Assembly: GCA_902551155.1 (NCBI GenBank)
Contig: CACDBG010000001.1
Coordinates: 4,532 to 68,531, forward strand
DNA: 64,000 bases
Direction: 5' to 3'
Origin: an uncultured Verrucomicrobiota bacterium
Lineage (GTDB): Bacteria > Verrucomicrobiota > Verrucomicrobiia > Limisphaerales > UBA1100
Below are positions 3,069-18,729 of the stretch, piece after piece. The first letter of the stretch is position 1; every line of letters starts with the position of its first letter. The position numbers were made by a program, and so were the translations under genes. The notes under the pieces are model-generated. The model searched no databases and had not been told where the DNA came from. It saw only the letters and a list, made by a program, of their open reading frames with translations.

Positions 3069-3170
3069 ATGACAAAAGTTAAGTTTATTAATCACTCTTC
3101 GATATTGGTTGATGATAGGGAGACCATCATCCTGACAGATCCTTGGCTCCCCACCTTTGATGAGAGTTGA
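3069..3170 (+). pseudogene. 33-codon remnant resembling the N-terminus of a Lactamase_B_3/UPF0173-type MBL hydrolase
   Basis: ATG at 3069 translates to MTKVKFINHSSILVDDRETIILTDPWLPTFDES, then TGA at 3168-3170. This matches the family start pattern M-K-I-x-(F/W)-(L/I)-G-H-S-x-(F/I)-L-(I/V)...IL(I/T)DPW. I see no continuation in any frame. Confidence 0.3.
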
Positions 3171-3284
3171 TAGCACTAAAAATTTCGGGAACAGATCATG
3201 AGTTGAATAGCTTGAACAAACTTGACCGAGGTTAAATAACTGTTTATCCCTCATTGGTCGGGGGTATCCAAAAAAAGAAAGATC

Positions 3285-4052: not shown

Positions 4053-4094
4053 TAAATAGCTTAAAGTAATATGCGTTGATCTGGGCACTTGGCC

Positions 4095-4874
4095 ATGAGG
4101 GTTTCTCTAATTGTTAGCACCTATAACTCGGTAAATGCACTTCAAAAAGTGCTCGCCGGAATTCGAGGGCAAACCACCTTGCCGGATGAACTTCTGATAG
4201 CCGATGATGGATCAAGCGAGGAAACACGTATATGTGGCTCTTACTTCCAAAAACAATTTATGGGAGATTTTCAGCATATTTGGCATGAGGATAAAGGATT
4301 TCGCAAAACGATTATTTTGAATAAAGCCATTGCGGCAGCAAATTCTCCATACATCATTTTTCTGGACGGTGATTGCGTGCCTCATCCTCGGTTTGTAGAG
4401 GATCACCTTACACTCAGAGAAGAACAATATTGGACACAAGGGCGGAGGGCATTCATCTCAGAGTCGCACGTTGACGCTTTTACGGGTCAGGCAAGTCAAT
4501 TCCTTACACTTTGGCTGCAGGGGCAAGCGAGTGGGTTTTTTAAGGGGGTTCGCTGGCCGTTACCTTGGATTCAAAAGGGTACACCACAGAGGGGGCTTAT
4601 TGGGTGCAATATGGGTGTATGGAAAAAGGATTTAATCGCGATAAATGGTTATGATGAGGAGTATCAAGGTTGGGGGAAGGAAGATTCTGATTTGGGAAAC
4701 CGTTTATATAATATGGGGTTGCTCCGGAAAACTGTGTATGGGAGAGCTATTGTATACCACTTAAACCATCCTCAGGCTTCAAGAAGAAATTTGTCTGAAA
4801 ATGAGAAGCGCCTATTGAGTGTGATTGAAAACGGACACATAGTGTGTCGTCGTGGGCTCAGTCAGTACTTATAA
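4095..4874 (+). CDS. family 2 glycosyltransferase with a galactosyltransferase-like C-terminal region
   Basis: Contains VSLIVSTYNSVNALQKVL...LLIADDGSSEET, FLDGDCVP and GWGKEDSDLGNRL. The track ORF starts at TTG 4089; I prefer ATG 4095. Confidence 0.8.
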   Translation: MRVSLIVSTYNSVNALQKVLAGIRGQTTLPDELLIADDGSSEETRICGSYFQKQFMGDFQHIWHEDKGFRKTIILNKAIAAANSPYIIFLDGDCVPHPRFVEDHLTLREEQYWTQGRRAFISESHVDAFTGQASQFLTLWLQGQASGFFKGVRWPLPWIQKGTPQRGLIGCNMGVWKKDLIAINGYDEEYQGWGKEDSDLGNRLYNMGLLRKTVYGRAIVYHLNHPQASRRNLSENEKRLLSVIENGHIVCRRGLSQYL

Positions 4875-4883
4875 TTATCAGAT

Positions 4884-5942
4884 ATGCGAGTTGTTCAGGT
4901 AGTCAGGAATTTTGGTCCGACGGGTGGGATGGAAGAATATGCATGGCAGCTAACAAACTGTTTGGCACAGAAGGGACTTTCCATAAGCGTTGTCTGTGAA
5001 CGTGCTGAGCATGAAATGCCCGAAGGAGTGCAGATCTACAGAATCCCTCGACAAACCCGGGGTCCCGGCTGGTTTCAAGCTCTAAAGTTCTCCAATAATT
5101 TGAGTGATTGGAAAGCACAGAATGGAAGAGCCACAGATTTTTTTCATTCTCACGAGTTTGTACGAGGGGCTGATATTCTTACTTTTCATACTACTCTTCA
5201 CAGTTCTGGGCAAAATTCTCTACTTAAAAGGTTCGATCCTTCATGGCATGGCAATCAATGGCTTGAAAGAAAGGCGATATTGTCTCCTCAGCTTAAAAGT
5301 TTGGTTCCGGTTTCTGACTTGTTAGGAGACCAGTTAAGAAAAGCGTACCCGAAGGCGAAATCTTTTTTATCAACCGCAATAGTTCCCGGGGTGTTAATGC
5401 CAAGCGCGAATAATTTGAAATCGGATTCTTCAAACGGAAAGGCGATTGGGTTTATGGGGAAAGAATGGGGGAGGAAAGGGCTGAGGCTTGTTATTGAGGT
5501 TTTTCGTCAACTAAATGAACGGGGTCATGAACTAAAGCTAGTTATTGCTGGAGTCGGTCATGATGAAATAGGCAATTTGATTGAGGGGCTTAGTCCAAAG
5601 GTGGAAGTGATGGGCTGGATTACTGACAAAGAGGAATTTTATAATAAGGTAGATTTACTATTGCACCCTGCAAAACTTGAGGCATATGGAATGGTTGTGA
5701 CGGAGGCACTGTCGCGGGGAATTCCAGTACTGGTTTCAGATCAGGTTGGGGCTTCTCAAGAAATAAAGACGGGCCTAGGAAGGGTATTACCACTAACGAA
5801 ACATATTTCGCAATGGGCTGATGCAGCTTGGGGGCTATTGAAGACGGGTCGCACAAATGATCCTATGTATAAAAGAAGTTGGGAACAGGTGGCATCCGAA
5901 TACCAAGAGTTATATGCTAGAGTTCTTTCGGGGAATAAATGA
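4884..5942 (+). CDS. family 4 (GT-B) glycosyltransferase, WaaG/RfaG-like
   Basis: 352 aa with the C-terminal E-x7-E region EAYGMVVTEALSRGIPVLVSD, typical of GT4. Confidence 0.85.
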   Translation: MRVVQVVRNFGPTGGMEEYAWQLTNCLAQKGLSISVVCERAEHEMPEGVQIYRIPRQTRGPGWFQALKFSNNLSDWKAQNGRATDFFHSHEFVRGADILTFHTTLHSSGQNSLLKRFDPSWHGNQWLERKAILSPQLKSLVPVSDLLGDQLRKAYPKAKSFLSTAIVPGVLMPSANNLKSDSSNGKAIGFMGKEWGRKGLRLVIEVFRQLNERGHELKLVIAGVGHDEIGNLIEGLSPKVEVMGWITDKEEFYNKVDLLLHPAKLEAYGMVVTEALSRGIPVLVSDQVGASQEIKTGLGRVLPLTKHISQWADAAWGLLKTGRTNDPMYKRSWEQVASEYQELYARVLSGNK

Positions 5943-6257
5943 GCTAAATCGGCTCTTTCTGACATTACCTCATATTTAAAAAACCTAGTGTGTTGATCGG
6001 TTCGATCGCATTTTGCCAGATAAAGGTTTTTGTGACATTGATCGGATGTTATTTCAAAGCTATTGAGAATAGGCTGTGCGGATTATTACTGTACAAAGAT
6101 ATAGGAAATTTAATGTTTATATTTTGCGGATTGACTCTGTCTGAGATGCTCTCCAGATAAAAAAACTGACCGGCAAAATCCTATTTTTTGGTTTTCTGAG
6201 ATGTTCTTGGATCATTGTTTATTGCTGTATTGAGGCGTGTAGCCTAAAAGGCTGGCA

Positions 6258-8111
6258 GTGGATAACGCGCGGCTGATTTTTGCTTTCGGGTGGCCCTTCA
6301 TGAAAAGATATTGGAGGCGCCTTTTGTTGGGGGTATTATTGGGTGTTTGCTTTGGTGTATTTAATGGTACTTTTGTTTGGGGAACGAAGACACTATTTGA
6401 GCGATTGAATCCAGATGATTCAGCTGAGCGAAATTTTACGGACACAACTGTTGTCCCGAGCGAATGGTCCAAAAAATTGAGTTCAGCAAACGATGTGGTG
6501 AAACGACGACTGGATCCGTGGCTGCCTCGTACAGGCAATGACTTGAGCATGCAACAGATCATAGGGGGGCTTCTTTTTTTACCATTTCTGGTCGGAGTAC
6601 GGAGCGGGATTGGATACGCAAGTGTATATTTTTTGGGATGGGTGAGTGAATATACAGTTCGGGATATCCGAATGGAGGCTCATTCAAACTTGCAGCGGCT
6701 TTCCTTAGATTATTTTTACGCGAAACAATTGGGTGATCATACAATGTTGATGAATCGTAGTACGGAGTCATTGCACCGTTGTCTTACCTACGGTGTTGCC
6801 GATGCAATCAAAGAGCCGTTCACGATATTAAGTTTGGTAACGGCTATGTTTATACTGGATTGGCAACTGGCTTTATTCGGCGTTCTGTTTGCCCCATTGA
6901 GTGCTATTCCAATCATAATAGTCGGCCGCAAACTACGTAAGGTGGCAAAGGTAACCTATAATAAAGGAACGGAACAGGATAGTTTGATGGTGGAGGTATA
7001 TACGAATATGCGCATAATTAAGGCTTATTGTATGGAAAAGATTCAGCTGGATCGGTTTAGTGGAATATACAATAAGCTAGCTCGCGCTGGCATGAAGGGT
7101 CTTCAGGCTCGTCATCTACAGAATCCAGTAATTGAATTACTTAGCACCATTGGAGCTGGGGTAATCATTATTTTTGTCTTCTATACTGACAAATCTGTTC
7201 CCCAGTTGGTGGGATTTTTAACTGGCATGATTATGCTCTATCAGCCAATCAAGAAGCTGGGATCAATAAATCAATATTATCAAGAGGCATCTGTGGGAGT
7301 CGGCATGCTGAAGGAAGTATTTGCTCAACGCCCTTCTGTAACTGAGCGTGAAAATGCTGTAGAATTAGGTCCGTTTCGATCACAGTTGGCTTTTAAAGGA
7401 GTAGATTTTTCCTACGGAGAAGAGGCCGTGCTCAGCGAGTTTGATTTAGAGATTCCTAAAGGAACAAAGTTAGGCGTGGTTGGTGAGAGTGGGGCCGGGA
7501 AAAGCACTTTGGTGAGTTTACTATTGCGGTTTTATGATCCTACTAAAGGGTGTGTTACCCTCGATGAGGTAGACATTAAAACATTCACTTTTCAAAGCTT
7601 ACGTGCGCAGATGGCATTGGTGAGTCAGGAAGTAGTGATTTTCGATCAAACAGTAGCGGAAAATATAGCGTGTGGAAACATTGATGCGTCACCCGAGAAG
7701 ATCATTGAAGCAGCAAAAGCAGCAAATGCTCATGATTTTATTGAGGGTTTGCCCCGGAGATATGACACGCGATTGGGAGAACAGGGGGCCCGACTTTCGG
7801 GAGGGCAACGGCAACGAATTGCCATTGCTAGAGCGTTTGTCAGACAGGCACCGATTCTGATCTTAGACGAGGCTACTGCAGCTTTAGATTCGAAGGCGGA
7901 GGCCGAAGTTCAAGGAGCGATCGACCGATTAGAAGAGGGCCGTACTGTGGTTTGTGTGGCGCACCGGCTGTCAACCCTGCGGAGAATGGATAGGATTATA
8001 GTTCTGGATCAAGGACGCGTAGTGGAGTCCGGTAGTTTTGAGGGATTATTAAATGGTGGCGGAGTTTTTTCTGAGATGGCAGCAAAGCAGGGGCTGAAAA
8101 CGACTGACTAA
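6258..8111 (+). CDS. msbA: ABC transporter permease/ATPase fusion, MsbA-like lipid A/lipid exporter
   Basis: 617 aa: an N-terminal 6-TM type I exporter domain, Walker A GESGAGKST, signature LSGGQRQRIAIARA, and Walker B ILILDEATAALD. It sits among LPS core glycosyltransferase genes. GTG start; an alternative ATG is at 6300. Confidence 0.8.
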   Translation: MDNARLIFAFGWPFMKRYWRRLLLGVLLGVCFGVFNGTFVWGTKTLFERLNPDDSAERNFTDTTVVPSEWSKKLSSANDVVKRRLDPWLPRTGNDLSMQQIIGGLLFLPFLVGVRSGIGYASVYFLGWVSEYTVRDIRMEAHSNLQRLSLDYFYAKQLGDHTMLMNRSTESLHRCLTYGVADAIKEPFTILSLVTAMFILDWQLALFGVLFAPLSAIPIIIVGRKLRKVAKVTYNKGTEQDSLMVEVYTNMRIIKAYCMEKIQLDRFSGIYNKLARAGMKGLQARHLQNPVIELLSTIGAGVIIIFVFYTDKSVPQLVGFLTGMIMLYQPIKKLGSINQYYQEASVGVGMLKEVFAQRPSVTERENAVELGPFRSQLAFKGVDFSYGEEAVLSEFDLEIPKGTKLGVVGESGAGKSTLVSLLLRFYDPTKGCVTLDEVDIKTFTFQSLRAQMALVSQEVVIFDQTVAENIACGNIDASPEKIIEAAKAANAHDFIEGLPRRYDTRLGEQGARLSGGQRQRIAIARAFVRQAPILILDEATAALDSKAEAEVQGAIDRLEEGRTVVCVAHRLSTLRRMDRIIVLDQGRVVESGSFEGLLNGGGVFSEMAAKQGLKTTD

Positions 8112-9094
8112 GTCGATTGTTCGTAACCTTTCGGATTTTTCTTCATCCAAGCCCATGCACTTCCGATTATAGATTCGGTTGAGTGGTGCTTTGCTTTCCA
8201 ACCCAATTGTGTAAGAGCTTTTTGTGTAGAGGCAACTAATTCTGGAGGCTCTTCAGGTCTGGCGGGTAATTCCTTGATCGGTATGGGGTGGTCGGTAATC
8301 TCGCGGCAGGTCTTAATGATTTCGTGTACTGAATCACCCTTGCCTCTGCCTAAATTATAGTCTCCTTTAACCCCTGATTTTAGTGCCAAAATGTGTGCCG
8401 AAGCTAAGTCTTCAACATGGATATAATCTCTAATACAAGTGCCATCAGGTGTGGGGTGATTAGTTCCGTATATCGCGAGCGAATCCAGTTGCCCCATTGC
8501 AACTTGCAGCAGCCTGGGAATTAAGTGCGTCTCAGGATTGTGAAACTCTCCATAATTTTTTGATGCGCCTGCCGCATTAAAATACCTGAAAATTACTGAC
8601 TCCATTTCACTTTGCATCGCCTGTGAAAGTAACATTCGCTCAAACGCCAACTTGGATTCTCCATATGGATTGACGGGGATCTGAGGGGAAGATTCGGTGA
8701 TCAGGGTTTGCGCAGGGATGCCGTAAGTTGCACAGGTAGAACTAAATATGAACTTACGTACACCATAACTTTTTGCGCATTCGAGCAGAGTAAACCCATT
8801 GATAGTGTTATTTTTGAAGTAAACGAGAGGCTTTGCAATAGACTCACTTACGAGGGTGCTTCCTGCAAAGTGTAGAACTGCATCTGGAAGACAATTTTTA
8901 AAGACTTCGTTTAGATTTATGGGGCATCCAATATCACCATGGAAAAAGTTAGCATCTTTAGATACTGCTTCACGATGGCCAGTTTTTAAGTTGTCGATGA
9001 CAGTTACCTGATAGCCTTCAGAGACTAGTTTTTCGACGCAGATGCTGCCGATATAACCGGCTCCTCCTGTAACGAGGATAGACTTTATAGTCAT
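8108..9094 (-). CDS. galE: UDP-glucose 4-epimerase
   Basis: 328 aa with ILVTGGAGYIGS (Rossmann fold) and the YGESK catalytic motif. The overall collinear pattern fits GalE. Its 3' end overlaps msbA convergently by 4 nt. Confidence 0.9.
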   Translation of the reverse strand: MTIKSILVTGGAGYIGSICVEKLVSEGYQVTVIDNLKTGHREAVSKDANFFHGDIGCPINLNEVFKNCLPDAVLHFAGSTLVSESIAKPLVYFKNNTINGFTLLECAKSYGVRKFIFSSTCATYGIPAQTLITESSPQIPVNPYGESKLAFERMLLSQAMQSEMESVIFRYFNAAGASKNYGEFHNPETHLIPRLLQVAMGQLDSLAIYGTNHPTPDGTCIRDYIHVEDLASAHILALKSGVKGDYNLGRGKGDSVHEIIKTCREITDHPIPIKELPARPEEPPELVASTQKALTQLGWKAKHHSTESIIGSAWAWMKKNPKGYEQST

Positions 9095-9223: not shown

Positions 9224-10078
9224 TTATGATGCGACAGCAGTAGGAGATTGGATAATCGGCTGATATTGGACGCCCAAAAGAGTATGCAGCTTTGCATTCA
9301 TGATAGTCATGTTTGGGAAACGGTCTTTGGGCTGGAAGGCGAGGCACTGATGGATGAGTTGGCTCAATCCAACGGGTACCTGTGGGTTATGAAGATGGGC
9401 AGGTTTAAACGAGTATTTTTCATTCAACTGATTACGGCGTGATTCTTCAGGGGTTCGCCCCCCAAAAGGTCGCAATTTGGTGAGCAGCTCATAGGCTGTA
9501 GCTCCCCAAGAGTATATGTCTGCACGATGATCTGTTTCTTTACCCATTAGCTGTTCTGGAGCCATATAGGCCGGGGTGCCAGAAACCTTAGGATATTTTT
9601 TGGGTTTGCGAGGAAACGATTGAGCTGTGTCAAAATCGAGTAAGCTTACATGCCCATTCAGGGAAACCATGATGTTTTCGGGTTTGTAATCCAGATGAAT
9701 CCAGCCTCGGTCATGTAGATGGTTAAGTCCATCAGCCATCTGAATTAGAACGTCTGCAACATTGTCAACCAACTCGAGTCCTCGCGATAAGACTGCTTTC
9801 AGGTCCGCCCCTTGAACGTATTGGAGTACCATGTAAGGTGTTTTATCGGCCTTCCCATGGTTAATGAATCGAATAATGTTGGGATGTGGAGAAAGTTTTT
9901 GGTGAACTTTTAGCCCAGCTTTAAAGAGCTTCGGCGCACTAGAGCTAGTTAGCCCACTACTCCGGAGTTTTCTAACTGCAACTACGTTTTCAAACTCGTC
10001 AGTCGCCATCCAGATCTCGGTGATGCCACCTTGAGCCACACACTCATGTAATAGAAAATTTCCAAATCTTTTCGCCAA
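9224..10078 (-). CDS. stand-alone Ser/Thr protein kinase domain protein with atypical motifs
   Basis: 284 aa with VAVRKL, HLDYKPENIM (HRD-type loop), DFD (DFG position) and GTPAYMAPE. I see no extra domains. Confidence 0.8.
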   Translation of the reverse strand: MAKRFGNFLLHECVAQGGITEIWMATDEFENVVAVRKLRSSGLTSSSAPKLFKAGLKVHQKLSPHPNIIRFINHGKADKTPYMVLQYVQGADLKAVLSRGLELVDNVADVLIQMADGLNHLHDRGWIHLDYKPENIMVSLNGHVSLLDFDTAQSFPRKPKKYPKVSGTPAYMAPEQLMGKETDHRADIYSWGATAYELLTKLRPFGGRTPEESRRNQLNEKYSFKPAHLHNPQVPVGLSQLIHQCLAFQPKDRFPNMTIMNAKLHTLLGVQYQPIIQSPTAVAS

Positions 10079-10323: not shown

Positions 10324-12051
10324 GTGGGAAAAAGGAATATGTTAAGGGAGGCAAAAGCCAGATTCTATTTTGTTGGCGGCTTGGCGGTTATTGTCGCCTT
10401 GTTTGCATTGGGCTGTGCTGCCGCCAAGCATCGTGAGGCTGCTGATAAGGAGGTATATCAAATTTTGTCCGAACGTCATGAACATGTCTTCGGTCAGCCT
10501 CACAATTATTCCATAGATACTGAATATTCAAAACGCAAACCAACAGATGTGAATGGCAGTGAGCTGATCCTCGACCGTGCTCGGGGAAGCAAGGTGCGGC
10601 TAATCACGCTTCCTGAAGCATTGGAAATAGCAGTCAAATCGAATCGCTCTTATCAGGATAATCGCGAGGAACTATACAAGAAAGCTTTGAGCCTAACAGA
10701 AACCCGTCACAATTTTTCTTTCCAATTTACTAGTGCAAGTGCCGATATAGGAATAAAGCGAAATTCGGATGGAACACAGGATCCGGCTACATCTTCAGCC
10801 AATATTGGGTTAACCAAAAAAATCTGGAAAACCGGAGGCCAAATCACAGCTTCATTAGCTAATGATTTAGTGCTCTACATTAACGGTAAACCTAAAGTGC
10901 CTGATTTAACCTTAAAACTTACCCAGCCATTGTTGCGCGGTGCAGGGGCAGATGTTGCTGCAGAGCTTCTAAAGCTGGCCGAGCGTCAAGTGGTATATCA
11001 AGTGCGCGACTTTAGTCATTATCAGAAGACTTTCGCCCTGAACGTGGTCAATGATTACCTCGACCTTTTACAGCAAGCAGACAGTATGCGTATTTCCTAT
11101 AATAGTTATACGAACTCAATATTTTTCCGTACTGAAATAGAAGCCCGTGCGGATGCTGGTTTGTTAGCGGAGTTTGATGTCAAACAGGCCAAGAAAGATG
11201 AATACGACGCTAAGTTGAGCTATATTGGATCAACCAATTCTTTCCAGAATTCATTGGATAATTTCAAACAAGAACTTTCGCTGCCACAAGGAACATCGAT
11301 CCAGCTTGATTTTAAGGTTTTGGAGCAAATAAATAAGTTAGGGCTACCTCAGGTTCCTATTAATGATTTAACCGGGTACAGCATGGCTATCACTAACCGG
11401 CTCGATTTTCTTAATCATATTGACCGGTTTGAGGATGCCAAGCGCTCAGTTAAGGTTGCTCGAAATAGTTTACTTCCCGGTTTAACTTTTGAAGCTGAGG
11501 CCAAACTAAAGGATCAACTTTATGATTCCTTTGATCCGAATGAATACGACTCTACTATAAAACTGAAACTTGATCTTCCGATATCCAAAGTTAGTGAGCG
11601 CAATGCATATCGCAAAAGTATTATTACTTTTGAGAAGCAACTGCGTACTTTAGCAACTCAGCTCGACACTTTAAGGAAGGGGGTTCGAGCGGATGTCCGC
11701 AATCTTGCTCGTCAAAGAGCTTATTATTATACACAGCTTGCGAAGCAGAAAAACGCTGAGGAGAACTTACTGGCTACCCGAGAACGTTTACGGCTGGGGT
11801 TTCCGGGAGTACGTACTCAAGATATTATTAGAGCTCGAAACAGCCTTACTTCTGCCCAGCAGGCGGTATCTCGGGCGATTGTAGACTATCATAAAACCCG
11901 CTTGAAGCTTCGCAAAGACGTGGGTATTTTAGACACGACACAGGAAGAATTTTGGCTCAAGACCAATGCAACTTCAGGTGGACAACCTGACCCAGCCCCA
12001 GATCAACAGGACCAAGAGGTAATACCGCCAAATCAAATTTTAGGAGATTAA
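10324..12051 (+). CDS. TolC/NodT-family outer membrane efflux lipoprotein
   Basis: 575 aa with lipobox LFALGC near the N-terminus. It has the two-repeat coiled-coil/beta-barrel pattern typical of the OEP family and is the first gene of the efflux operon. GTG start; an alternative ATG is at 10339. Confidence 0.8.
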   Translation: MGKRNMLREAKARFYFVGGLAVIVALFALGCAAAKHREAADKEVYQILSERHEHVFGQPHNYSIDTEYSKRKPTDVNGSELILDRARGSKVRLITLPEALEIAVKSNRSYQDNREELYKKALSLTETRHNFSFQFTSASADIGIKRNSDGTQDPATSSANIGLTKKIWKTGGQITASLANDLVLYINGKPKVPDLTLKLTQPLLRGAGADVAAELLKLAERQVVYQVRDFSHYQKTFALNVVNDYLDLLQQADSMRISYNSYTNSIFFRTEIEARADAGLLAEFDVKQAKKDEYDAKLSYIGSTNSFQNSLDNFKQELSLPQGTSIQLDFKVLEQINKLGLPQVPINDLTGYSMAITNRLDFLNHIDRFEDAKRSVKVARNSLLPGLTFEAEAKLKDQLYDSFDPNEYDSTIKLKLDLPISKVSERNAYRKSIITFEKQLRTLATQLDTLRKGVRADVRNLARQRAYYYTQLAKQKNAEENLLATRERLRLGFPGVRTQDIIRARNSLTSAQQAVSRAIVDYHKTRLKLRKDVGILDTTQEEFWLKTNATSGGQPDPAPDQQDQEVIPPNQILGD

Positions 12052-12052
12052 T

Positions 12053-14452
12053 ATGAGAAAAAGAAACAGATCCAAAAAGGCTAATTCTGCGGCATCAGTT
12101 ACTAATCAACGGGGCAGAGGAGGCTTCGCGATTGCGAAACTGCTCGGCGTTTTGATTCTGTTCGGCGTTGTGGGTGGCGGGGTCTGGGGTGCTAAATATT
12201 ATCTCAATAAAGAGAAGGAAAAGGTTCGCAAGGAAGTTTATCATGTTGCCAATAAATCTGATTTTTTAGTTACAGTTCCGTTGACCGGCCAGTTGAAATC
12301 TACTGATGTAGAAGAGCTTAAGTGTGAATTGGAAGGTTCGACTACCATTGAAACGATTGTGGAAGAAGGGACTAAGGTAAAAGGCCCCGTCACCTATACT
12401 GTTAAATTGGAGGACTCAATAGAGTCCATATCAAAATATCATGATAAGGATCTACTTTGCATCAAGCAGCTGAATAAGGACCTTAAGCTGGACTGGGAAA
12501 AATTGGAGGCAGGTACGGAGATTCAAATCCCTGGCGACTTACTTGTTGAGCTGGACCCCTTAACTTTGAAAGAACGTATTAATTCCCAGGAGATTGCGGT
12601 ACAGCGTGCAGAAAACAATTTGATGCGTGCTAAGGGCAATAAGGAGACGCTCGTGCTTGCTTCGGAACTCGCTCTCAAGGTGGCTCAAAATAATTATACA
12701 AATGCTTTAATGGACCTGGATAAGTTAAAGAATAACACCATTGAGACATATATAACGAATACAGGAATTTCCATTAAGAATTTAGAGACTGACGTAGAGC
12801 TGGCGGAGAAAAATCTGACCGCCTATAACAGACTAAAGGAATTGGGGTTTGTATCTGATTTAGAGGTGCTCAAGGAAAAATCCAGAAGAGATAAGGCCTT
12901 ACATCAGATCAAGGTATTAAGAGACGATTTGGAGACCTATAAAAAGTATGATCAAAAATCTATGCTGAGCGCGAAAGAGCTGACGGTAGATGAGTGCGCG
13001 GTGCAGATAAAGAAACAGGAAGTTATGAATAAGGCCAACTCTGCAGATGCAGACTCCGATGTTTTGACTGCTGAGAAGACCTTGGAGCTAGAGCGGGAAA
13101 AATTGGAGGATCTTTTCGAGCAGATGGCAAATACTAAAATCTACGCGCCTCAGGATGGAACCGTTTTGTATTGGACTCACCGTTATGATCGAGGGGAGCC
13201 GATTATGGATGGAGCGAAAGTCTATAAGGGCAGAAATTTAATTAAGTTGCCCAAGAGTAAATCACTCAAGGTTGATATTAGTGTGCCACAGCTCAAACGT
13301 CCTCAGTTGAAAGTTGGGCAGAAGGCCTATGTTGAAGTTGAAGATATAAAGCTTCCGGGAACTTTATCTATGATCAGCACAACTGTGGATTCCAATCGCC
13401 GAGGGCACACTGATAAATCCTATTTTAAAGCCGAGGTTGCTATTGATAGCAGTAGTTTCCCTGACTCAGTTTCTGAAGGGATGAAGGTTAAAGTGGAAGT
13501 TGTGGTCATGAATCTTGTTGAGGAAGAGCGTTTGATTAAGTTGCCAAACCAGTGTGTGACCACTCGTATGATTAGTGAAGATACTCCAGAAACCGGATGC
13601 TGGGTGCTTAATGAAAAGACTGAAAAACATGAGTGGCGACCTGTGACTATAGAATATAGTGATGAAACCCATATTGCTATACGCGATTGGGCTTCTATCT
13701 TGGATATTACCGATAAACAAAAGGATAAATGGTGGCAGCAGCGCAATAAGGCAAAAAAAGCCCTAGATCAGTTGGCTGAAGAATTAGCGTCAGAAAAAGA
13801 AGCTCTGATGGTAAAGGCCCGTGAGGAAGTAAAGGATTTCTCTAGAGTGGAGCGGCAGGAAGCAATAAAAAATGCCAAGAAAAAAACCGATAAGGATATA
13901 CGAAAAAAACAGGAGGATGGCGCAGCAGAAATTATTGATGCGTTTCGCAAATCGGTCGAGGGATTCCTGTCGGAAAAGCAACTGGTGAAGTTTGATGAGG
14001 CCCCTAGTCAGCTCAAAACAGAGGGAAACAAAACAGAGGGAATTATGGTCTACTTTGATGGGCTAAGGGAGGGGGAGCGCGTCCATCTCTCACCTCTAAC
14101 TGAGGCGGACAATCTAAATCTCGATGAAGCTATTATGGGTAAGGGTTACATTGATCTGGAGACTCAAGCTCCCAAGAAAGCGGGCCTCAATGATCCTGTC
14201 AGTTTACTTGGGATTACAGAGGATCAAAAGCAGGATTGGTCAACTGCACAAGCTAAGGCGAAAAGTGCTAGGGCCAAGTTAATGGCGGGCCTAATGTCAA
14301 AAGAAATTACGAGGGATCAAATCCCAAGTGCTAGTGAAAAAATTCGAAATGACTTTCGAGAAGAAGTACAGAAGTTCCTTAACGAGGAACAAATGCAGAA
14401 GTTCGATCAGCAAATGAAGAAGGATTATAAAGTTCTCTTTCCGAAGCAGTAA
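12053..14452 (+). CDS. HlyD/MacA-family periplasmic adaptor (MFP) with LysM-like and LTXXQ-type insertions
   Basis: 799 aa with an N-terminal TM anchor (FAIAKLLGVLILFGVVGGGVWG) and long coiled-coil hairpins. It has the motif IYAPQDGTVLYW and beta-barrel segments. The ATG is 1 nt after the TolC stop. The extra modules are described in the findings. Confidence 0.8.
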   Translation: MRKRNRSKKANSAASVTNQRGRGGFAIAKLLGVLILFGVVGGGVWGAKYYLNKEKEKVRKEVYHVANKSDFLVTVPLTGQLKSTDVEELKCELEGSTTIETIVEEGTKVKGPVTYTVKLEDSIESISKYHDKDLLCIKQLNKDLKLDWEKLEAGTEIQIPGDLLVELDPLTLKERINSQEIAVQRAENNLMRAKGNKETLVLASELALKVAQNNYTNALMDLDKLKNNTIETYITNTGISIKNLETDVELAEKNLTAYNRLKELGFVSDLEVLKEKSRRDKALHQIKVLRDDLETYKKYDQKSMLSAKELTVDECAVQIKKQEVMNKANSADADSDVLTAEKTLELEREKLEDLFEQMANTKIYAPQDGTVLYWTHRYDRGEPIMDGAKVYKGRNLIKLPKSKSLKVDISVPQLKRPQLKVGQKAYVEVEDIKLPGTLSMISTTVDSNRRGHTDKSYFKAEVAIDSSSFPDSVSEGMKVKVEVVVMNLVEEERLIKLPNQCVTTRMISEDTPETGCWVLNEKTEKHEWRPVTIEYSDETHIAIRDWASILDITDKQKDKWWQQRNKAKKALDQLAEELASEKEALMVKAREEVKDFSRVERQEAIKNAKKKTDKDIRKKQEDGAAEIIDAFRKSVEGFLSEKQLVKFDEAPSQLKTEGNKTEGIMVYFDGLREGERVHLSPLTEADNLNLDEAIMGKGYIDLETQAPKKAGLNDPVSLLGITEDQKQDWSTAQAKAKSARAKLMAGLMSKEITRDQIPSASEKIRNDFREEVQKFLNEEQMQKFDQQMKKDYKVLFPKQ

Positions 14453-14473: not shown

Positions 14474-15205
14474 ATGGCTGACCGGAACATCATTGAGATT
14501 CGGAATCTTACCAAGATATATGATCTGGGGGCCATTCAAGTGCCGGCACTCAATGGCCTCAATTTTGAAATTGAGGAAGGATCCTACACTGCCATCATGG
14601 GGCCTTCAGGCTCAGGAAAATCGACACTTCTAAATATTCTCGGATGTTTGGATCGACCTACCGCTGGTGCTTATATTCTGGGTAATGACGATGTGGCCCA
14701 TATGAGTGACAAGGAGCTCTCAGGTGTGAGGGGCGCGCGCATTGGATTCATTTTTCAATCCTATAATCTTATTCAGCAGTTAAACGTGATTGAGAATATT
14801 CACGTTCCTCTTTTTTATCAGGGTAAGGACATTAGTGACTACTATGACCACTGCGAAAAGTTGGCTCAAAAAGTTGGTTTGGGTGATCGATTGGATCATC
14901 GGCCCATGGAACTTTCTGGAGGACAACAACAGAGAGTGGCGGTGGCGCGGTCGTTGGTAAATGAGCCTTTGATGCTTTTGGCTGATGAACCCACTGGCAA
15001 CCTCGACTCCACTACAGAGCAGGAGATTCTGGATATACTCGATGAACTTCACGCAGAGGGTCGCACTCTAGTTGTGGTAACGCATGATGACGCGGTTGCT
15101 GAGCGGGCAAGTCGCGTCATTCACCTCAAGGATGGGCAAGTGGATAAGGATATCCGAAAACAAGATTCAGATCGAAAATCCGAGAACCAGTTTCAGGAAG
15201 CCTAA
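14474..15205 (+). CDS. ABC transporter ATP-binding protein, MacB/LolD type
   Basis: 243 aa with Walker [10 protein letters not shown], signature [15 protein letters not shown], and Walker [12 protein letters not shown]. Confidence 0.9.
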
Positions 15206-15208
15206 ATC

Positions 15209-16510
15209 ATGCCCGGTTTTTCCATTCTCCGCCTGATTCAGGTTGGGTTCAGGAGTCTTCGTCTCCATAAGCTGCGAAGTGCCCTTACAATGTTGGGAAT
15301 GATTATTGGTGTCTGGGCAGTTATTCTATTGGTCGCCATTGGGGAAGGGGCAAGTCGAGAAGCACAGGAGGCGATTAAGGCACTGGGCGCTCAAAATGTC
15401 ATCATCCGGAGCATCAAGCCGATATCGGATAAAGTCCAATTGCAGGGTGAAATGCAGTGGGAGTCTATTTACGGACTTAAGAACTCTGATGCTGTGCGGA
15501 TTGAAAAAACGGTTCCTGGAGTAAAACGAGTTCTTCCAATCTTAAGGCACAGAAAAAATGTTACACATGAGCAACGAGACAAGGATTGTCAGTTGATCGG
15601 AACATTCCCTCATTATCCCCAGTTTACCCAATCACGTCTTGTAGCAGGGCAGTTTCTGAATGAAATGGAGGAGGCAAGGAAAGAAAATGCGTGTGTGTTA
15701 ACGATGAGTTTGGCTGGTTTTCTTTTTCCCGGGAAAAATCCTTTGGGGCAGGAAGTAATTGTTCGTGGTCGTGAATCTCACCAAATATTTCGAGTAAAGG
15801 GTATTTTAGAGGAACGTGCTGATTCAGAAAAGTTGCCACAACAGGCTGATGCAACTGGTCACACGATTTTGGCCAACGTTTATATTCCATTATCCACTTT
15901 CAAAGCTTTGTATGGCATCAAGGATATTGATTTAAGTGTGGGGAGTATATCGGTAAACACGGTTGAATTGAGCGAAATCCGGGTTGAATTTGGTTCGGTG
16001 GATGAGGTGGTTCCAGCTTTGCCATTGATTCGAGAGGCATTGGATAAAGTTCGTAAGGATAAGATCGACTATGAAATTCAAGTTCCCATTAATGAACTTA
16101 ATGCTCTGAAGGCCCAAAAAGCGCGAGATACTTGGCTGTTAATGTTGATTGCCTGCATATCTTTACTCGTAGGAGGTATTGGGATCATGAACATCATGCT
16201 TGCCACGGTGACTGAGCGTACACAGGAAATCGGAGTGCGTCGGGCTTTGGGGGCTACCCAGATTGATATCTCAGTCCAGTTTTTAGTTGAAACGCTCATA
16301 CTCTGTTTAATTGGTGGCACCATTGGGGTACTGGGAGGGTGCGGGAATGCAGCCTTTTTCCATTACATTCTTGATCATACCACGATCGTTACAGAGTGGT
16401 CTGTAGTCGTGGCTTTTGGGTTGGCAGTCGGAGTCGGTTTGACTTTTGGTCTTTACCCCGCATGGAGTGCGGCCCGCTTGGACCCGATTGAGGCTTTACG
16501 ACACTCTTGA
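15209..16510 (+). CDS. ABC transporter permease, MacB/FtsX family (paralog 1)
   Basis: 433 aa with MacB_PCD-like periplasmic domain between TM1 and TM2. The C-terminal FtsX region reads LLVGGIGIMNIMLATVTERTQEIGVRRALGAT. Confidence 0.85.
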   Translation: MPGFSILRLIQVGFRSLRLHKLRSALTMLGMIIGVWAVILLVAIGEGASREAQEAIKALGAQNVIIRSIKPISDKVQLQGEMQWESIYGLKNSDAVRIEKTVPGVKRVLPILRHRKNVTHEQRDKDCQLIGTFPHYPQFTQSRLVAGQFLNEMEEARKENACVLTMSLAGFLFPGKNPLGQEVIVRGRESHQIFRVKGILEERADSEKLPQQADATGHTILANVYIPLSTFKALYGIKDIDLSVGSISVNTVELSEIRVEFGSVDEVVPALPLIREALDKVRKDKIDYEIQVPINELNALKAQKARDTWLLMLIACISLLVGGIGIMNIMLATVTERTQEIGVRRALGATQIDISVQFLVETLILCLIGGTIGVLGGCGNAAFFHYILDHTTIVTEWSVVVAFGLAVGVGLTFGLYPAWSAARLDPIEALRHS

Positions 16511-17826
16511 AAATGTATGCATTAGCTCTCATCCGAATTTTTCAAGCTGGCTTAAAGAGTTTGCGACTACACAAGCTACGTAGTGCTCTCACCATGTTGG
16601 GTATGATTATTGGAGTGGGGGCAGTGATTGCGTTGGTGGCTATTGGTGAAGGGGCCAGTCACGATGCTCAAGAAGAGATTCGAGCACTTGGGGCCAAGAA
16701 TGTGATCATTCGCAGTATCAAGCCGCCTTCTATGCGCGAACAGATGCATGGAGATTGGGAAAGTTTTTTTCGCCGTTGGATGGCATTCTACGGACTAAAA
16801 CGAACTGACGCGACACGCATCAAGGACACAGTGCCAGGAGTGAGCCGTGTCCTTCCGATGCTGACCAAGCGAATGAGCGCGGTGCACGAACGTCGGGAAG
16901 TTGGTTGTCAATTGATTGGGACATTCCCCTACTATCCAGAGTTTACACAGGCCGAACTGGTGGCCGGGGAGTTTCTTAATGCTGCAGAAGAAAACACTAA
17001 GGCGTCAGCTTGTGTGATATCTTTATCCTTAGCTGAGCGTTTGTTCGCAGGGCATAATCCATTGGCAGAAGAAATTGTGGTACGTGGTTACGAATCCGAG
17101 CAGGTGTTTCAAGTGAAGGGAATTTTACGTGAAAGGGCGGATACTGAGAAATTACCGCAATTACCCGACTCTATGGGCCAAACGATTGCGGCAAATGTAT
17201 ATATTCCTTTATCCACCTTTAAGTCGTTATACGGAGAAAGAAATGTGGACCGTAGTGTAGGTAATCTCGTACTTGAAGCAGTAGAATTGTCGGAGATACG
17301 AGTCGAATTTGATACGGTTGAAGATGTATTGCCGGCTCTACCATTAATTGATGAGGCATTAAAGGCAGGCAGAGATGAACGTGATTTCGAAATCGTAGTA
17401 CCCATACAGGAAATGGTAGCGCTTCGAAACCAAAAGGCACGTGACACGAGAATGCTTTTGTATATTGCTTGCATCTCACTATTGGTTGGAGGGATCGGCA
17501 TCATGAATATTATGCTGGCGACTGTTACCGAGCGTACTCAGGAAATCGGGGTGCGTCGTGCGTTGGGTGCTACACGCTCAAATATTACCATACAGTTCCT
17601 CGTAGAGACCTTATTGCTTTGTCTTGTTGGTGGGGCAATCGGGGTTTCTGGTGGGTGGGCTTTTTCAGAGTTTCGCGAATTTTTAACGGGTGATTCAACC
17701 ATCGTAAAAGCATGGTCCGTGATAATGGCCTTTGGACTGTCGGTTGTAATCGGATTAGTTTTTGGTCTGTATCCGGCACGTAGAGCAGCGCATTTGGATC
17801 CTATTGAGGCTTTGCGCCATACTTAA
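16507..17826 (+). CDS. ABC transporter permease, MacB/FtsX family (paralog 2)
   Basis: 439 aa, collinear with and highly similar to the upstream permease (LRLHKLRSALTMLGMIIGV and LLVGGIGIMNIMLATVTERTQEIGVRRALGAT are identical). The TTG 16507 start overlaps the upstream TGA; an alternative ATG is at 16513. Confidence 0.85.
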   Translation: MKMYALALIRIFQAGLKSLRLHKLRSALTMLGMIIGVGAVIALVAIGEGASHDAQEEIRALGAKNVIIRSIKPPSMREQMHGDWESFFRRWMAFYGLKRTDATRIKDTVPGVSRVLPMLTKRMSAVHERREVGCQLIGTFPYYPEFTQAELVAGEFLNAAEENTKASACVISLSLAERLFAGHNPLAEEIVVRGYESEQVFQVKGILRERADTEKLPQLPDSMGQTIAANVYIPLSTFKSLYGERNVDRSVGNLVLEAVELSEIRVEFDTVEDVLPALPLIDEALKAGRDERDFEIVVPIQEMVALRNQKARDTRMLLYIACISLLVGGIGIMNIMLATVTERTQEIGVRRALGATRSNITIQFLVETLLLCLVGGAIGVSGGWAFSEFREFLTGDSTIVKAWSVIMAFGLSVVIGLVFGLYPARRAAHLDPIEALRHT

Positions 17827-17834
17827 TTGCCGTT

Positions 17835-17868
17835 GACCGACTAAGTCGGTTCCCGTAGCCTTTTTTTT
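17835..17868 (+). terminator. possible intrinsic terminator after the efflux operon
   Basis: Hairpin GACCGAC-TAA-GTCGGTT (17835-17851), then a T8 run at 17861-17868. The 9-nt spacer between stem and T tract is longer than ideal. Confidence 0.4.
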
Positions 17869-17883
17869 CACCCACTAATAACT

Positions 17884-18729
17884 ATGAGATTTGGTATTAA
17901 CACCTTTCTATTCACTTCGCCCTTCACCACCAAAAGTACGAGTCTTTTCCCCAAATTCAAGAAATGGGGATTTCAGACCATCGAAATCCCAATTGAAGCG
18001 CCTGAACATATTGACTCAGTTAAAGTTAAAAAAGCTCTGGACCGCAATGGTTTAGTTTGCGGTTCGGTTTGTGCCTGCATGGGGCCCGGACGTGATTTTC
18101 GTGGTAGTGCAAAGGATCAGAGAGAAGCGATGAAATATTGCAAAGCTCTGATTGACCATATGGTGAATTTGGGTTGTCCGTCATTAATTGGTCCAGTTTA
18201 TAGTGTAGTAGGTAAGGCAGATGCCGTGGAGCCCAAAGAGCAAAAGAGGGAATTTGCCCTTGTCGTAAAAAACCTGAAAGTGCTTGCTGCTTACGCTGAG
18301 AAGAAGGGTGTTCAGATTTGCGTTGAACCTCTCAATCGATTTGAAACAGATTTTCTTAATACTTGTGAAAAAGGCCTGCGCCTCATAAAGGCTGTTGGGA
18401 GTCCGGCATTAAAGCTGCATCTGGATACCTTCCACATGAATATTGAGGAAAAGAATCAGGCAGCCGCAATCCGCAAGGCAGGCAAACATCTTGGCCATTT
18501 TCATGCGTGCGGTAGTGATCGGGGCACTCCTGGAAACGATCACATTGATTGGGTGCCGATTGTTAAGGCGCTCAAAGGTATACGTTATAAAGGTGACATT
18601 GTGATCGAGAGTTTTACGACTGATGTAAAGGTGATTGCACGTGCAGCAGCAATTTGGAGACGAATGGAGCCTACGCGTGAAGAAATTGCTGTGAAGGGGC
18701 TGAAATTTTTGAAGAAAGCTTTTAAGTAA
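17884..18729 (+). CDS. sugar phosphate isomerase/epimerase (xylose isomerase-like TIM barrel; ketose 3-epimerase-like)
   Basis: 281 aa: MRFGINTFLFTSPF..., the metal-ligand context EPLNRFE, LDTFHMNIEE, HFHACGSDRGTPG, and ESFT. Confidence 0.8.
   Translation: MRFGINTFLFTSPFTTKSTSLFPKFKKWGFQTIEIPIEAPEHIDSVKVKKALDRNGLVCGSVCACMGPGRDFRGSAKDQREAMKYCKALIDHMVNLGCPSLIGPVYSVVGKADAVEPKEQKREFALVVKNLKVLAAYAEKKGVQICVEPLNRFETDFLNTCEKGLRLIKAVGSPALKLHLDTFHMNIEEKNQAAAIRKAGKHLGHFHACGSDRGTPGNDHIDWVPIVKALKGIRYKGDIVIESFTTDVKVIARAAAIWRRMEPTREEIAVKGLKFLKKAFK

What the first reader, a model, noticed from the sequence alone, without database searches (positions are those of the whole stretch)
13697..14452. Two Spy/CpxP-like LTXXQ modules lie in the C-terminal part of the same adaptor
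Two related segments occur. Segment 1 (about 13697..14003) reads ILDITDKQKDKWWQQRNKAKKAL...AFRKSVEGFLSEKQLVKFDEA. Segment 2 (about 14204..14430) reads LLGITEDQKQDWSTAQAKAKSARAKL...DFREEVQKFLNEEQMQKFDQQ. Each carries two (L/I)-(T/S/N)-x-x-Q motifs about 60-90 residues apart, which is the signature arrangement of the periplasmic chaperone/stress family Spy/CpxP/ZraP. Segment 1 interrupts what looks like the membrane-proximal beta domain (THIAIRD ... IMVYFDGLREGERVHLSP), and segment 2 forms the C-terminal tail. An efflux adaptor with built-in Spy-like chaperone modules may indicate export or handling of unfolded periplasmic proteins or peptides, not small molecules.
Basis: partly seen in the sequence, partly recalled or inferred. 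Interest (0 to 1): 0.6.

Follow-up and report, generated by a model that had tools for sequence, protein, structure and literature searches.

The report
Efflux adaptor carrying two Spy-like domains
A periplasmic adaptor protein of a MacB-type export pump from an uncultured marine Verrucomicrobium carries two extra folded helical domains distantly related to the chaperone Spy, a domain combination I found no paper describing; what the domains do is untested.

Summary
The 799-aa adaptor ORF (12053..14452) has two related helical segments: aa 544-653, inserted in a loop of the membrane-proximal domain, and aa 713-798, a C-terminal domain on a disordered tether. Each begins and ends with an (I/L)-(T/S/N)-x-x-Q motif. 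Their similarity beats shuffles (z=7.2, 0/2000).

Direct Pfam LTXXQ scores are below threshold (12.6-14.7 bits against 24.3), and PF13801 does not hit. Homology to the Spy/CpxP superfamily is supported through intermediates. A profile of the adaptor modules alone finds about 200 mostly two-copy proteins, several passing Pfam's LTXXQ cut-off. A profile of 43 module copies from those proteins matches the query modules and E. coli Spy (E=3.5e-8).

AlphaFold2 gives a confident three-helix unit (pLDDT 92). Fold similarity to Spy is weak and inconclusive.

The modules are accessory. Of 120 orthologues, 73 have none, 40 only the C-terminal one and 7 both. Proteins 92% identical differ by the internal module.

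The chaperone or unfolded-protein-export idea is plausible but untested. This is a new domain architecture of known parts, of moderate interest.

The parts
12053..14452 (+). 799-aa periplasmic adaptor (membrane fusion protein) of MacA/HlyD type that carries the modules
   Evidence: ORF. The full-length AlphaFold2 model matches MacA in MacAB-TolC (9qgy_G E=6.7e-16, 5nik_D E=1.4e-15) as well as AcrA, MexA and EmrA. Pfam HlyD_D23 and the NCBIfam HlyD and RND_mfp models score below their cut-offs.
12131..12226 (+). N-terminal membrane helix (aa 27-58) after a basic cytoplasmic tail, which places the rest of the protein in the periplasm
   Evidence: AlphaFold2 helix 27-58. The sequence MRKRNRSKK...GGFAIAKLLGVLILFGVVGGGVWG is. 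The topology is inferred from the positive-inside rule.
12389..12532 (+). LysM-like insert (aa 113-160), a beta-alpha-alpha-beta unit
   Evidence: Pfam LysM scores 19.0 bits in the whole protein and 22.6 bits, above the 20.9 cut-off, when excised. The orthologue profile hits LysM proteins Ecp6 and YkuD in the PDB.
12566..13129 (+). Very long alpha-helical hairpin (aa 172-263 and 269-359)
   Evidence: AlphaFold2, pLDDT about 90-96.
13682..14011 (+). Module 1 (aa 544-653): an LTXXQ-type helical domain inserted in a loop of the membrane-proximal domain. Motifs are ITDKQ at 13706..13720 and LSEKQ at 13967..13981. It has a long helical hairpin (554-592 and 598-635) plus a third helix (641-653).
   Evidence: hhalign of the module-1 alignment against the profile of 43 module copies from non-adaptor proteins gives probability 97.9%, E=4e-13.
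14030..14098 (+). Return to the membrane-proximal domain (IMVYFDGLREGERVHLSPL), with the last conserved strand
   Evidence: G670, E675, L679, P681 and L682 are invariant in all 57 aligned proteins. AlphaFold2 places a strand at 676-679.
14099..14188 (+). Disordered tether (aa 683-712) between the adaptor core and module 2; its length varies among orthologues
   Evidence: pLDDT below 50. The alignment shows length variation, with a much longer tether in P0003 and P0004. Distant adaptors P0139, P0171 and P0250 have Gly-rich tethers.
14189..14446 (+). Module 2 (aa 713-798): a compact C-terminal LTXXQ-type three-helix domain. Motifs are ITEDQ at 14213..14227 and LNEEQ at 14378..14392.
   Evidence: AlphaFold2 pLDDT 91.9 with helices 11-36, 42-61 and 66-83 of the module. 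The non-adaptor profile matches it end to end at 61.7 bits. hhalign of the adaptor modules against that profile gives 99.6%, E=9e-25.
10324..12051 (+). TolC-like outer-membrane channel gene immediately upstream
   Evidence: Pfam OEP 65.7 bits; NCBIfam TolC family below cut-off.
14474..15205 (+). Separate MacB/LolD-type ABC ATPase
   Evidence: Pfam ABC_tran 108 bits. The best NCBIfam matches are the MacB N-terminal part, LolD, DarD and DevA, all below their cut-offs.
15209..17826 (+). Two paralogous MacB-type permeases (15209..16510 and 16507..17826), each with MacB_PCD and FtsX domains
   Evidence: Pfam hits; ORFs.
9224..10078 (-). Divergently transcribed small Ser/Thr protein kinase. It is syntenic with this pump family in distant relatives; any role is unknown.
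   Evidence: Pfam Pkinase 147 bits. The same arrangement is seen in L005, L008, L041 and L042.

Best explanation
What it is. The two segments are diverged copies of one small, autonomously folding helical domain. It is a compact, roughly 75-residue three-helix form of the LTXXQ (Spy/CpxP) superfamily, and its other matches are mostly two-copy proteins of 200-400 aa, most with an N-terminal hydrophobic stretch. Both copies have been grafted onto a MacA-type adaptor of a tripartite pump made of a TolC-like channel, the adaptor, a separate ATPase and two MacB-type permeases.

Where the copies sit. The C-terminal copy hangs on a disordered tether and appears to be the older feature, because early-branching members of all three orthologue clades have it. 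The internal copy is spliced into a loop of the membrane-proximal domain and behaves as a presence/absence cassette among close relatives.

How it most likely works (inferred, not shown). MacA adaptors form hexamers whose membrane-proximal ring sits on the periplasmic domain of MacB (established knowledge from the E. coli MacAB-TolC structure). The modules would therefore be displayed in 6 or 12 copies around the periplasmic base of the pump. I think they most likely act there as tethered, ATP-independent binding surfaces in the manner of Spy. They would capture the pump's periplasmic cargo, or a partner protein, and concentrate it at the MacB entrance. Pairs of modules, within one chain or between neighbouring chains, would mimic the two-domain unit seen in Spy dimers and in the tandem proteins. 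They tune the pump rather than being essential to it.
For: Shown.
- The internal repeat is real.
- Both modules are confidently folded helical units.
- The link to Spy runs through intermediates. A profile of adaptor modules alone finds 197 proteins at E<=1e-3 among 1.84 billion. Among them, P0130 (57.4 bits, plus Metal_resist 37.3), P0125 (37.8) and P0124 (30.3, at the same residues as the module match) pass Pfam's LTXXQ cut-off.
- A profile of 43 module copies from those proteins, with no adaptor sequences, matches query module 2 at 61.7 bits, module 1 in two halves, Spy at E=3.5e-8 and CpxP at E=0.03.
- An extended profile puts four Spy entries on top of the PDB at E=1e-7 to 8e-7, and hhalign against Spy gives 96%.
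- 104 of 148 family proteins have exactly two copies, and 98 of the 134 that start with Met have an N-terminal hydrophobic stretch.
- The adaptor fold and the pump operon are confirmed.
- The tether is disordered.
- The same C-terminal module recurs on distantly related adaptors of the same kind of operon: P0139, P0250, and a paralogous adaptor in L005.
- The modules are mildly basic (pI 8.8-8.9) on an acidic core (pI 5.9). Spy is described as a cradle-shaped dimer with two LTxxQ motifs that holds clients without ATP (PMC4791398).
Against: - No experiment or structure shows binding of anything.
- Direct Pfam scores are below threshold. Adaptor modules alone do not reach Spy.
- The monomer model is a compact three-helix unit, and Foldseek similarity to Spy is not significant, so a Spy-like cradle is unproven.
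- The residues conserved in the modules (Q13, W17, F63, L64, Q68) look structural.
- 73 of 120 orthologues work without any module, and no separate LTXXQ gene lies within 10 kb in a module-less locus. The modules cannot be central to transport.
- The position and orientation of the modules in the assembled pump were not modelled.
Confidence: 0.5

Rival explanations
1. The modules have an assembly or docking role only. They pair with each other or with a neighbouring protein (adjacent protomers, a second adaptor, the MacB periplasmic domain) to stabilise or space the oversized pump, and bind no cargo.
For: The conserved residues look structural. Two-copy arrangements dominate the family, which suggests domain-domain pairing. 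Related loci carry two adaptors in one gene cluster, both with the module. The adaptor has other structural add-ons, a LysM insert and a roughly 90-residue-per-arm hairpin.
Against: A disordered tether of variable length is an odd way to attach a brace. Orthologues 92% identical differ by the internal module, which argues against a role in core assembly.
Confidence: 0.25
2. The modules are a CpxP-like regulatory element. The tethered module docks on the pump's periplasmic domain, or on a sensor, and is displaced by misfolded proteins or cargo, switching the pump on or off.
For: CpxP, a family member, regulates its partner kinase by binding its periplasmic domain and being titrated away (established knowledge). 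The tether geometry suits an autoinhibitory domain. A protein kinase gene is conserved next to the operon.
Against: The neighbouring kinase is a 284-aa kinase domain, and Pfam finds no other domain in it. The match to CpxP is much weaker than to Spy. Nothing was tested.
Confidence: 0.12
3. The modules are a metal-binding or metal-sensing element like ZraP or CnrX, on a metal efflux adaptor.
For: Foldseek lists CnrXs among its weak, non-significant hits. Some family relatives also match PF13801 Metal_resist.
Against: Neither module contains a His or Cys. PF13801 does not match the query segments even at E<=10. The pump is MacB-type, not a CusCBA- or Czc-type metal pump.
Confidence: 0.03
4. There is no domain. 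The segments are charged coiled-coil or low-complexity spacers in which LTXXQ-like helix-capping motifs occur by chance.
For: The segments are rich in K and E. The motif is a common helix N-cap. The segments are absent from most orthologues. Direct Pfam scores are below threshold.
Against: The repeat similarity far exceeds shuffles and exceeds the protein's own coiled coil. The AlphaFold2 model has pLDDT 92. Profile matches run end to end with E down to 9e-25. In the PDB search Spy stands 4-5 orders of magnitude above any natural coiled coil.
Confidence: 0.02

Closest known systems
Spy, and more distantly CpxP, of E. coli (Pfam PF07813 LTXXQ; PDB 3O39, 3OEO, 3QZC, 3ITF)
   Same: Paired LTXXQ motifs, each at the start of a helix. 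All-helical. Periplasmic. The profile alignment to Spy is collinear over about 75 columns. A two-domain unit is common: Spy is a dimer, and the related proteins are mostly two-copy (PMC4791398).
   Different: The module is shorter than the aligned part of Spy. Spy carries two extra stretches of 8 and 10 residues in the alignment. The predicted unit has three helices. Direct Pfam scores are below threshold and fold similarity is not significant. The module is covalently part of a pump adaptor rather than a free soluble protein. Chaperone activity is untested.
MacA of the MacAB-TolC pump (PDB 5NIK, 9QGY, 3FPP)
   Same: Best fold matches of the full-length model. An N-terminal membrane helix. An operon with a TolC-like channel and MacB-type ABC components.
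   Different: About twice the size (799 against about 370 aa), with three additions: a LysM insert, an internal LTXXQ module and a tethered C-terminal LTXXQ module. The hairpin has about 90 residues per arm. The MacB partner is split into a separate ATPase and two different permeases. There is no sequence-level match to any solved adaptor.
Uncharacterised proteins with mostly two tandem LTXXQ-type modules (for example P0130, P0124, P0125)
   Same: The same compact module: hhalign 99.6%, E=9e-25. Gly-rich or low-complexity linkers between modules.
   Different: They are 200-400-aa proteins with an N-terminal hydrophobic stretch and no adaptor domains. The two whose neighbourhoods could be read are not next to pumps. 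No function is known for them either.
DevBCA-type and LolCDE-type MacB-family systems
   Same: A separate ATPase subunit, as in both. Two different permease subunits, as in LolCDE. The ATPase scores 185-227 bits against the DevA and LolD models.
   Different: All scores are far below the curated cut-offs. Unlike Lol, this system has an adaptor and an outer-membrane channel. As far as I know, neither system has LTXXQ modules.

Membership tests
LTXXQ / Spy-CpxP family (Pfam PF07813) | Two LTXXQ motifs, each at the start of a helix | tested here: met
   ITDKQ 552 and LSEKQ 639; ITEDQ 721 and LNEEQ 776. In the models the motifs sit at helix starts. The Q of both motifs is invariant in 19 module sequences.
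LTXXQ / Spy-CpxP family (Pfam PF07813) | Score at or above Pfam's gathering cut-off (24.3 bits) | tested here: not met
   No hit for the whole protein. The excised segments score 12.6 and 14.5 bits, and 14.7 bits for a slightly different excision of module 2. 13 of 19 adaptor modules give weak hits, the best at E=0.0026.
LTXXQ / Spy-CpxP family (Pfam PF07813) | Homology to Spy or CpxP by profile methods | tested here: met
   Only through intermediates. Adaptor modules to the non-adaptor profile: 99.6%, E=9e-25. That profile to Spy: E=3.5e-8; to CpxP: E=0.03. Extended profile to Spy: hhalign 96%, E=3.8e-9, and PDB E=1.1e-7. Direct tests fail.
LTXXQ / Spy-CpxP family (Pfam PF07813) | Spy-like helical fold | tested here: inconclusive
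LTXXQ / Spy-CpxP family (Pfam PF07813) | Antiparallel dimer forming a cradle | not testable with these tools
   Only monomer prediction was available. The only indirect hint is the predominance of two-copy proteins in the family.
LTXXQ / Spy-CpxP family (Pfam PF07813) | Periplasmic location | tested here: met
   Predicted only. A basic N-terminus followed by one membrane helix (aa 27-58), then the adaptor domains that are periplasmic in all known pumps.
LTXXQ / Spy-CpxP family (Pfam PF07813) | ATP-independent chaperone (holdase or foldase) activity | not testable with these tools
   Needs purified protein and aggregation or refolding assays.
ZraP / Metal_resist (Pfam PF13801) | HMM match and metal-ligand residues | tested here: not met
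   No PF13801 hit at E<=10 for the segments. Neither module has a His or Cys.
MacA-type periplasmic adaptor (membrane fusion protein) | Adaptor fold (lipoyl, hairpin, barrel and membrane-proximal domains) | tested here: met
   Foldseek gives 74 hits at E<=1e-3; all 50 hits shown are adaptors, headed by MacA.
MacA-type periplasmic adaptor (membrane fusion protein) | Curated sequence-model cut-offs (Pfam HlyD_D23; NCBIfam type_I_hlyD and RND_mfp) | tested here: not met
   22.3 bits against 30; 39.1 against 208.65; 36.6 against 94.9. This is a divergent lineage.
MacA-type periplasmic adaptor (membrane fusion protein) | Encoded with a MacB-type ABC transporter and a TolC-like channel | tested here: met
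   The gene order is OEP, adaptor, ABC_tran, then two MacB_PCD+FtsX permeases in the window. Related loci keep the OEP, adaptor, ATPase and MacB-type permease genes, with differing gene order and copy number.
LysM domain (Pfam PF01476) | Score at or above the gathering cut-off, and a beta-alpha-alpha-beta unit | tested here: met
   22.6 bits against 20.9 for the excised aa 101-171, but 19.0 bits in the whole protein. The model has E113-116, H123-130, H134-140 and E156-159.

The most novel reading that the evidence does not exclude
The pump is a periplasmic disposal or secretion route for non-native proteins or peptides. Six to twelve Spy-like holdase domains, built into the adaptor ring and partly on flexible tethers, would catch unfolded periplasmic clients and feed them to a MacB-type 'bellows' for expulsion through the TolC-like channel. 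That would be a chaperone physically fused to an efflux machine.
Probability: 0.1. Interest if true: 0.8.

Novelty: new variant of a known kind. Interest (0 to 1): 0.45.

Why it matters
Periplasmic adaptors are usually treated as passive bridges, or at most as gatekeepers. In the text libraries I could search, I found no paper describing an adaptor that carries domains of a chaperone or stress-protein family: one paper contains both 'LTXXQ' and 'membrane fusion protein', and its title and abstract concern an unrelated proteomics study.

If the modules bind cargo, this would be a natural example of substrate recruitment built into a tripartite pump. It would also give a handle on what MacB-type pumps export in Verrucomicrobiota, where these systems are uncharacterised.

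The natural series of orthologues with no module, one module or both, including a pair 92% identical that differs only by the internal module, is a ready-made comparative experiment. The work also defines a compact, roughly 75-residue LTXXQ unit that scores near or below Pfam's threshold and occurs mostly in two copies per protein.

Tried and rejected
- Whole-protein Pfam and NCBIfam scans gave no LTXXQ hit. Excised segments scored below threshold.
- A profile of adaptor modules alone against the PDB found no Spy or CpxP at E<=10. hhalign of the same profile against Spy gave 2%. The family link therefore rests on intermediates.
- Foldseek of the module model against the PDB found nothing significant.
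- Full-length sequence and profile searches against the PDB found no solved adaptor, only LysM proteins.
- I looked for a separately encoded LTXXQ protein near a module-less orthologue and elsewhere in the 64-kb window. There was none.
- I read the neighbourhoods of two non-adaptor module proteins. One contig was too short, and the other showed no pump.
- DNA repeats around the internal module gave no convincing recombination signature, only a 14-nt tandem duplication at 14014..14042.
- The metal-binding idea is rejected: the modules have no His or Cys and no PF13801 hit.
- The low-complexity or coiled-coil idea is rejected.
- Three literature searches found nothing on such fusions.
Full report
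**Setting.** The finding lies in a 799-aa ORF (12053..14452, + strand). This ORF is the second gene of a five-gene cluster:
- a TolC-like outer-membrane protein (10324..12051);
- this protein;
- a MacB/LolD-type ABC ATPase (14474..15205);
- two paralogous permeases with MacB_PCD and FtsX domains (15209..16510 and 16507..17826).

The closest genome is a Tara Oceans MAG of an uncultured marine Verrucomicrobiales bacterium, at 99% identity. All 29 relatives found in genomes are from uncultured Verrucomicrobiota: 28 MAGs and one other uncultured isolate assembly.

**The protein is a periplasmic adaptor.** Curated sequence models score below their cut-offs (HlyD_D23 22.3 bits against 30), and no solved adaptor is found by sequence. 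The AlphaFold2 model (mean pLDDT 78.5) nevertheless has the canonical order of parts:
- a membrane helix at aa 27-58;
- beta-rich domains;
- a very long hairpin at aa 172-263 and 269-359;
- barrel and membrane-proximal strands.

Its best PDB matches are MacA in MacAB-TolC (9qgy_G E=6.7e-16, 5nik_D E=1.4e-15), followed by AcrA, MexA and EmrA.

**Checking the observation.** The quoted sequences are there. Segment 1 begins at I549 (nt 13697). Segment 2 begins at L718 (nt 14204). The motifs are ITDKQ 552 and LSEKQ 639, and ITEDQ 721 and LNEEQ 776.

The two segments are related well beyond chance:
- BLASTP gives E=7e-7.
- The local alignment score is 83, against 35.9 +/- 6.6 for 2000 shuffles (z=7.2, none reaches it).
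- The score against windows of the protein's own coiled coil is only 20-44.
- HMMs built from each module type in orthologues detect the other type collinearly.

Module 1 is module 2 with about 33 extra residues in the middle.

**Placement.** An alignment with orthologues shows that module 1 (aa 544-653) replaces a short loop, K-EE(T/S)DPG-RGL, between two conserved strands of the membrane-proximal domain. AlphaFold2 places strands at 540-543 and 676-679 on either side of it. It models the insert as a long helical hairpin (554-592 and 598-635) plus a third helix (641-653), with pLDDT 80-89. Module 2 (aa 713-798) follows a 30-residue stretch with pLDDT below 50. Predicted alone with an alignment of 19 modules, it is a confident three-helix unit (pLDDT 91.9). 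The second and fourth helices of the model begin at the two motifs.

- The whole protein gives no LTXXQ hit.
- The excised segments score 12.6 and 14.5 bits against a cut-off of 24.3. PF13801 gives nothing.
- 13 of 19 adaptor modules do pick PF07813 as a weak hit, while no other family is picked by more than 3.
- A profile of adaptor modules alone does not retrieve Spy or CpxP from the PDB. hhalign against E. coli Spy gives 2% probability.

The link appears through intermediates:
1. The adaptor-module profile, searched against 1.84 billion representative proteins, finds 197 at E<=1e-3.
2. Of the 148 examined, 104 have two copies. They are mostly 200-400 aa long. Of the 134 that start with Met, 98 have an N-terminal hydrophobic stretch.
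3. Several pass Pfam's LTXXQ cut-off: P0130 at 57.4 bits (and Metal_resist at 37.3), P0125 at 37.8, and P0124 at 30.3 at the same residues as the module match.
4. A profile built only from 43 module copies from these proteins, with no adaptor sequence in it, matches query module 2 end to end (61.7 bits). It matches module 1 in two halves (14.5 and 16.5 bits), E. coli Spy at E=3.5e-8 and CpxP at E=0.03, for a database the size of the PDB. It gives nothing on the protein's own coiled coil.
5. hhalign gives 99.6% (E=9e-25) for the adaptor modules against that profile, and 97.9% (E=4e-13) for module 1 alone.
6. An extended profile (five adaptor-orthologue modules plus 46 module copies from the hits) puts four Spy sequences on top of the PDB at E=1e-7 to 8e-7. 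CpxP follows at 0.01-0.02. hhalign of this profile against Spy gives 96% over 75 columns.

In these alignments Spy carries two extra stretches of 8 and 10 residues. The module is therefore a compact version of the aligned part of Spy.

I conclude that homology to the Spy/CpxP superfamily is well supported. Formal membership of PF07813 by its own threshold is not met.

The fold evidence is inconclusive. Foldseek ranks Spy (6bie, 6owy), the VirG-like protein 5io8 and CnrXs among the top hits of 350,542 chains. The values are not significant, with E=3-9 and TM 0.4-0.6. More sensitive libraries were not available.

**Distribution among orthologues.** Among the 120 best orthologues, 73 have no module (585-659 aa), 40 have only the C-terminal one (665-761 aa) and 7 have both (799-858 aa). 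None has the internal one alone.

On a neighbour-joining tree of the core, C-terminal-only forms sit at the base of all three clades. This suggests the C-terminal module is ancestral and was lost at least twice.

The internal module is patchy. It occurs in two clades, interleaved with proteins that lack it. P0016 (with it) and P0073 (without it) are 92.3% identical over 715 shared residues, with a clean in-frame replacement of the loop. Across clades, module 1 is about as conserved as the hairpin (45-51% identity to the query) and more conserved than module 2 (about 30%). This is compatible with lateral movement of the cassette, which I did not test.

A module-less orthologue keeps the same operon, and no separate LTXXQ gene lies within 10 kb. 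No other ORF in the 64-kb window carries the module.

**Recurrence on other adaptors.** More distant adaptors also end in this module after long, mostly Gly-rich tethers. They include P0139 (717 aa), P0250 (627 aa), P0171 (793 aa, with EF-hands) and a 785-aa paralogue in L005.

The two whose neighbourhoods I read (P0139 and P0250) are in the same kind of operon. The order is a divergent small Ser/Thr kinase, then OEP, adaptor, ATPase and MacB-type permease. The association between this module and this pump family is therefore old and repeated.

**How it may work.** The following are shown:
- two homologous folded helical domains of the Spy/CpxP superfamily;
- one rigidly inserted in the membrane-proximal domain;
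- one on a flexible tether;
- both dispensable in evolution;
- both predicted to be periplasmic.

The rest is inferred. MacA adaptors are hexamers whose membrane-proximal ring sits on MacB's periplasmic domain, where cargo enters (established knowledge from MacAB-TolC structures). The modules should therefore surround the periplasmic base of the pump in 6 or 12 copies.

Three facts point the same way. Spy is a dimer of two-LTxxQ subunits that holds clients without ATP (PMC4791398). Most relatives have two copies. The modules are mildly basic on an acidic core. Together these make tethered binding surfaces that capture cargo or a partner the most economical reading. I give it about even odds overall: high confidence for the identity of the modules and much lower for the mechanism.

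The rivals are:
- a purely structural pairing role;
- a CpxP-like autoinhibitory or sensing role;
- metal binding, largely excluded because the modules have no His or Cys and no PF13801 hit;
- chance motifs in a charged linker, excluded.

**The cargo is unknown.** The upstream neighbourhood has three glycosyltransferases, an MsbA-like ABC exporter and an NAD-dependent epimerase. Parts of this neighbourhood recur in L008 and L041. The split ATPase/permease organisation is shared with DevBCA and Lol systems. These features fit envelope glycolipids or glycoconjugates just as well.

**Novelty.** Both parts are known kinds. I found no paper describing the combination of a pump adaptor with built-in LTXXQ-family domains, one of them as an insertion cassette. 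I class it as a new variant of a known kind, of moderate interest, and higher if cargo binding is shown.

Noticed in passing
window 12389..12532 (aa 113-160 of the adaptor): A LysM-like beta-alpha-alpha-beta unit is inserted in the N-terminal beta-rich part of the adaptor and conserved in orthologues. It scores 22.6 bits (cut-off 20.9) when excised. This suggests the pump is anchored to peptidoglycan.
   Followed up: partly
window 12566..13129 (aa 172-359): The alpha-hairpin has about 90 residues per arm at high confidence, much longer than I recall for E. coli MacA. Some orthologue clades lengthen it further with 7-residue inserts (alignment columns about 346-380).
   Followed up: no
window 14474..17826: The MacB partner is split into a separate ATPase and two different permeases whose genes overlap by 4 nt (16507 and 16510). 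This composition resembles LolCDE, but here it comes with an adaptor and an outer-membrane channel.
   Followed up: partly
window 17826..17884, compared with L006 7493..12254: A Tara MAG contig whose adaptor is 99% identical carries an extra OEP, 548-aa adaptor and permease set (about 4.8 kb) between permease 2 and the AP_endonuc_2 gene. The window lacks it, so whole pump modules come and go between near-identical genomes.
   Followed up: no
window 9224..10078 (-); also L005 578..1357, L008 1692..2564, L041 3049..3894, L042 3164..4000: A small (about 260-290 aa) Ser/Thr protein kinase in which Pfam finds only kinase-type domains is conserved, divergently transcribed, directly upstream of the OEP gene of this pump family, even in distant relatives. 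The module-less locus L003 lacks it.
   Followed up: partly
P0016 and P0017 against P0073 and P0105; window 14014..14042: The internal module is present or absent between proteins 86-92% identical. P0016 and P0017 have a duplicated DWASVLD at the N-terminal junction. The window has a perfect 14-nt tandem duplication (KTEGN-KTEG) just after module 1. These may be traces of how the cassette moves.
   Followed up: partly
L005 3559..5916; P0171, P0123: A paralogous adaptor family combines the C-terminal LTXXQ module with EF-hand calcium-binding motifs at the extreme C-terminus.
   Followed up: no
window 897..9094: Upstream lie a metallo-beta-lactamase-fold protein, three glycosyltransferases (GT2, GT2, GT4), an MsbA-like ABC exporter and an NAD-dependent epimerase. 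The Lactamase_B, ABC exporter and kinase order recurs in L041. This may hint that the pump handles envelope glycoconjugates.
   Followed up: partly
L042 12501..13884: Two DegP/HtrA-like protease genes (Trypsin_2 + PDZ) lie downstream of a distant module-bearing pump operon (P0250). This may be coincidence, or a link to periplasmic protein quality control.
   Followed up: no
P0124-P0268: A family of uncharacterised proteins with two to four compact LTXXQ-type modules, several separated by Gly-rich linkers. Individual modules often score near or below Pfam's LTXXQ threshold.
   Followed up: partly
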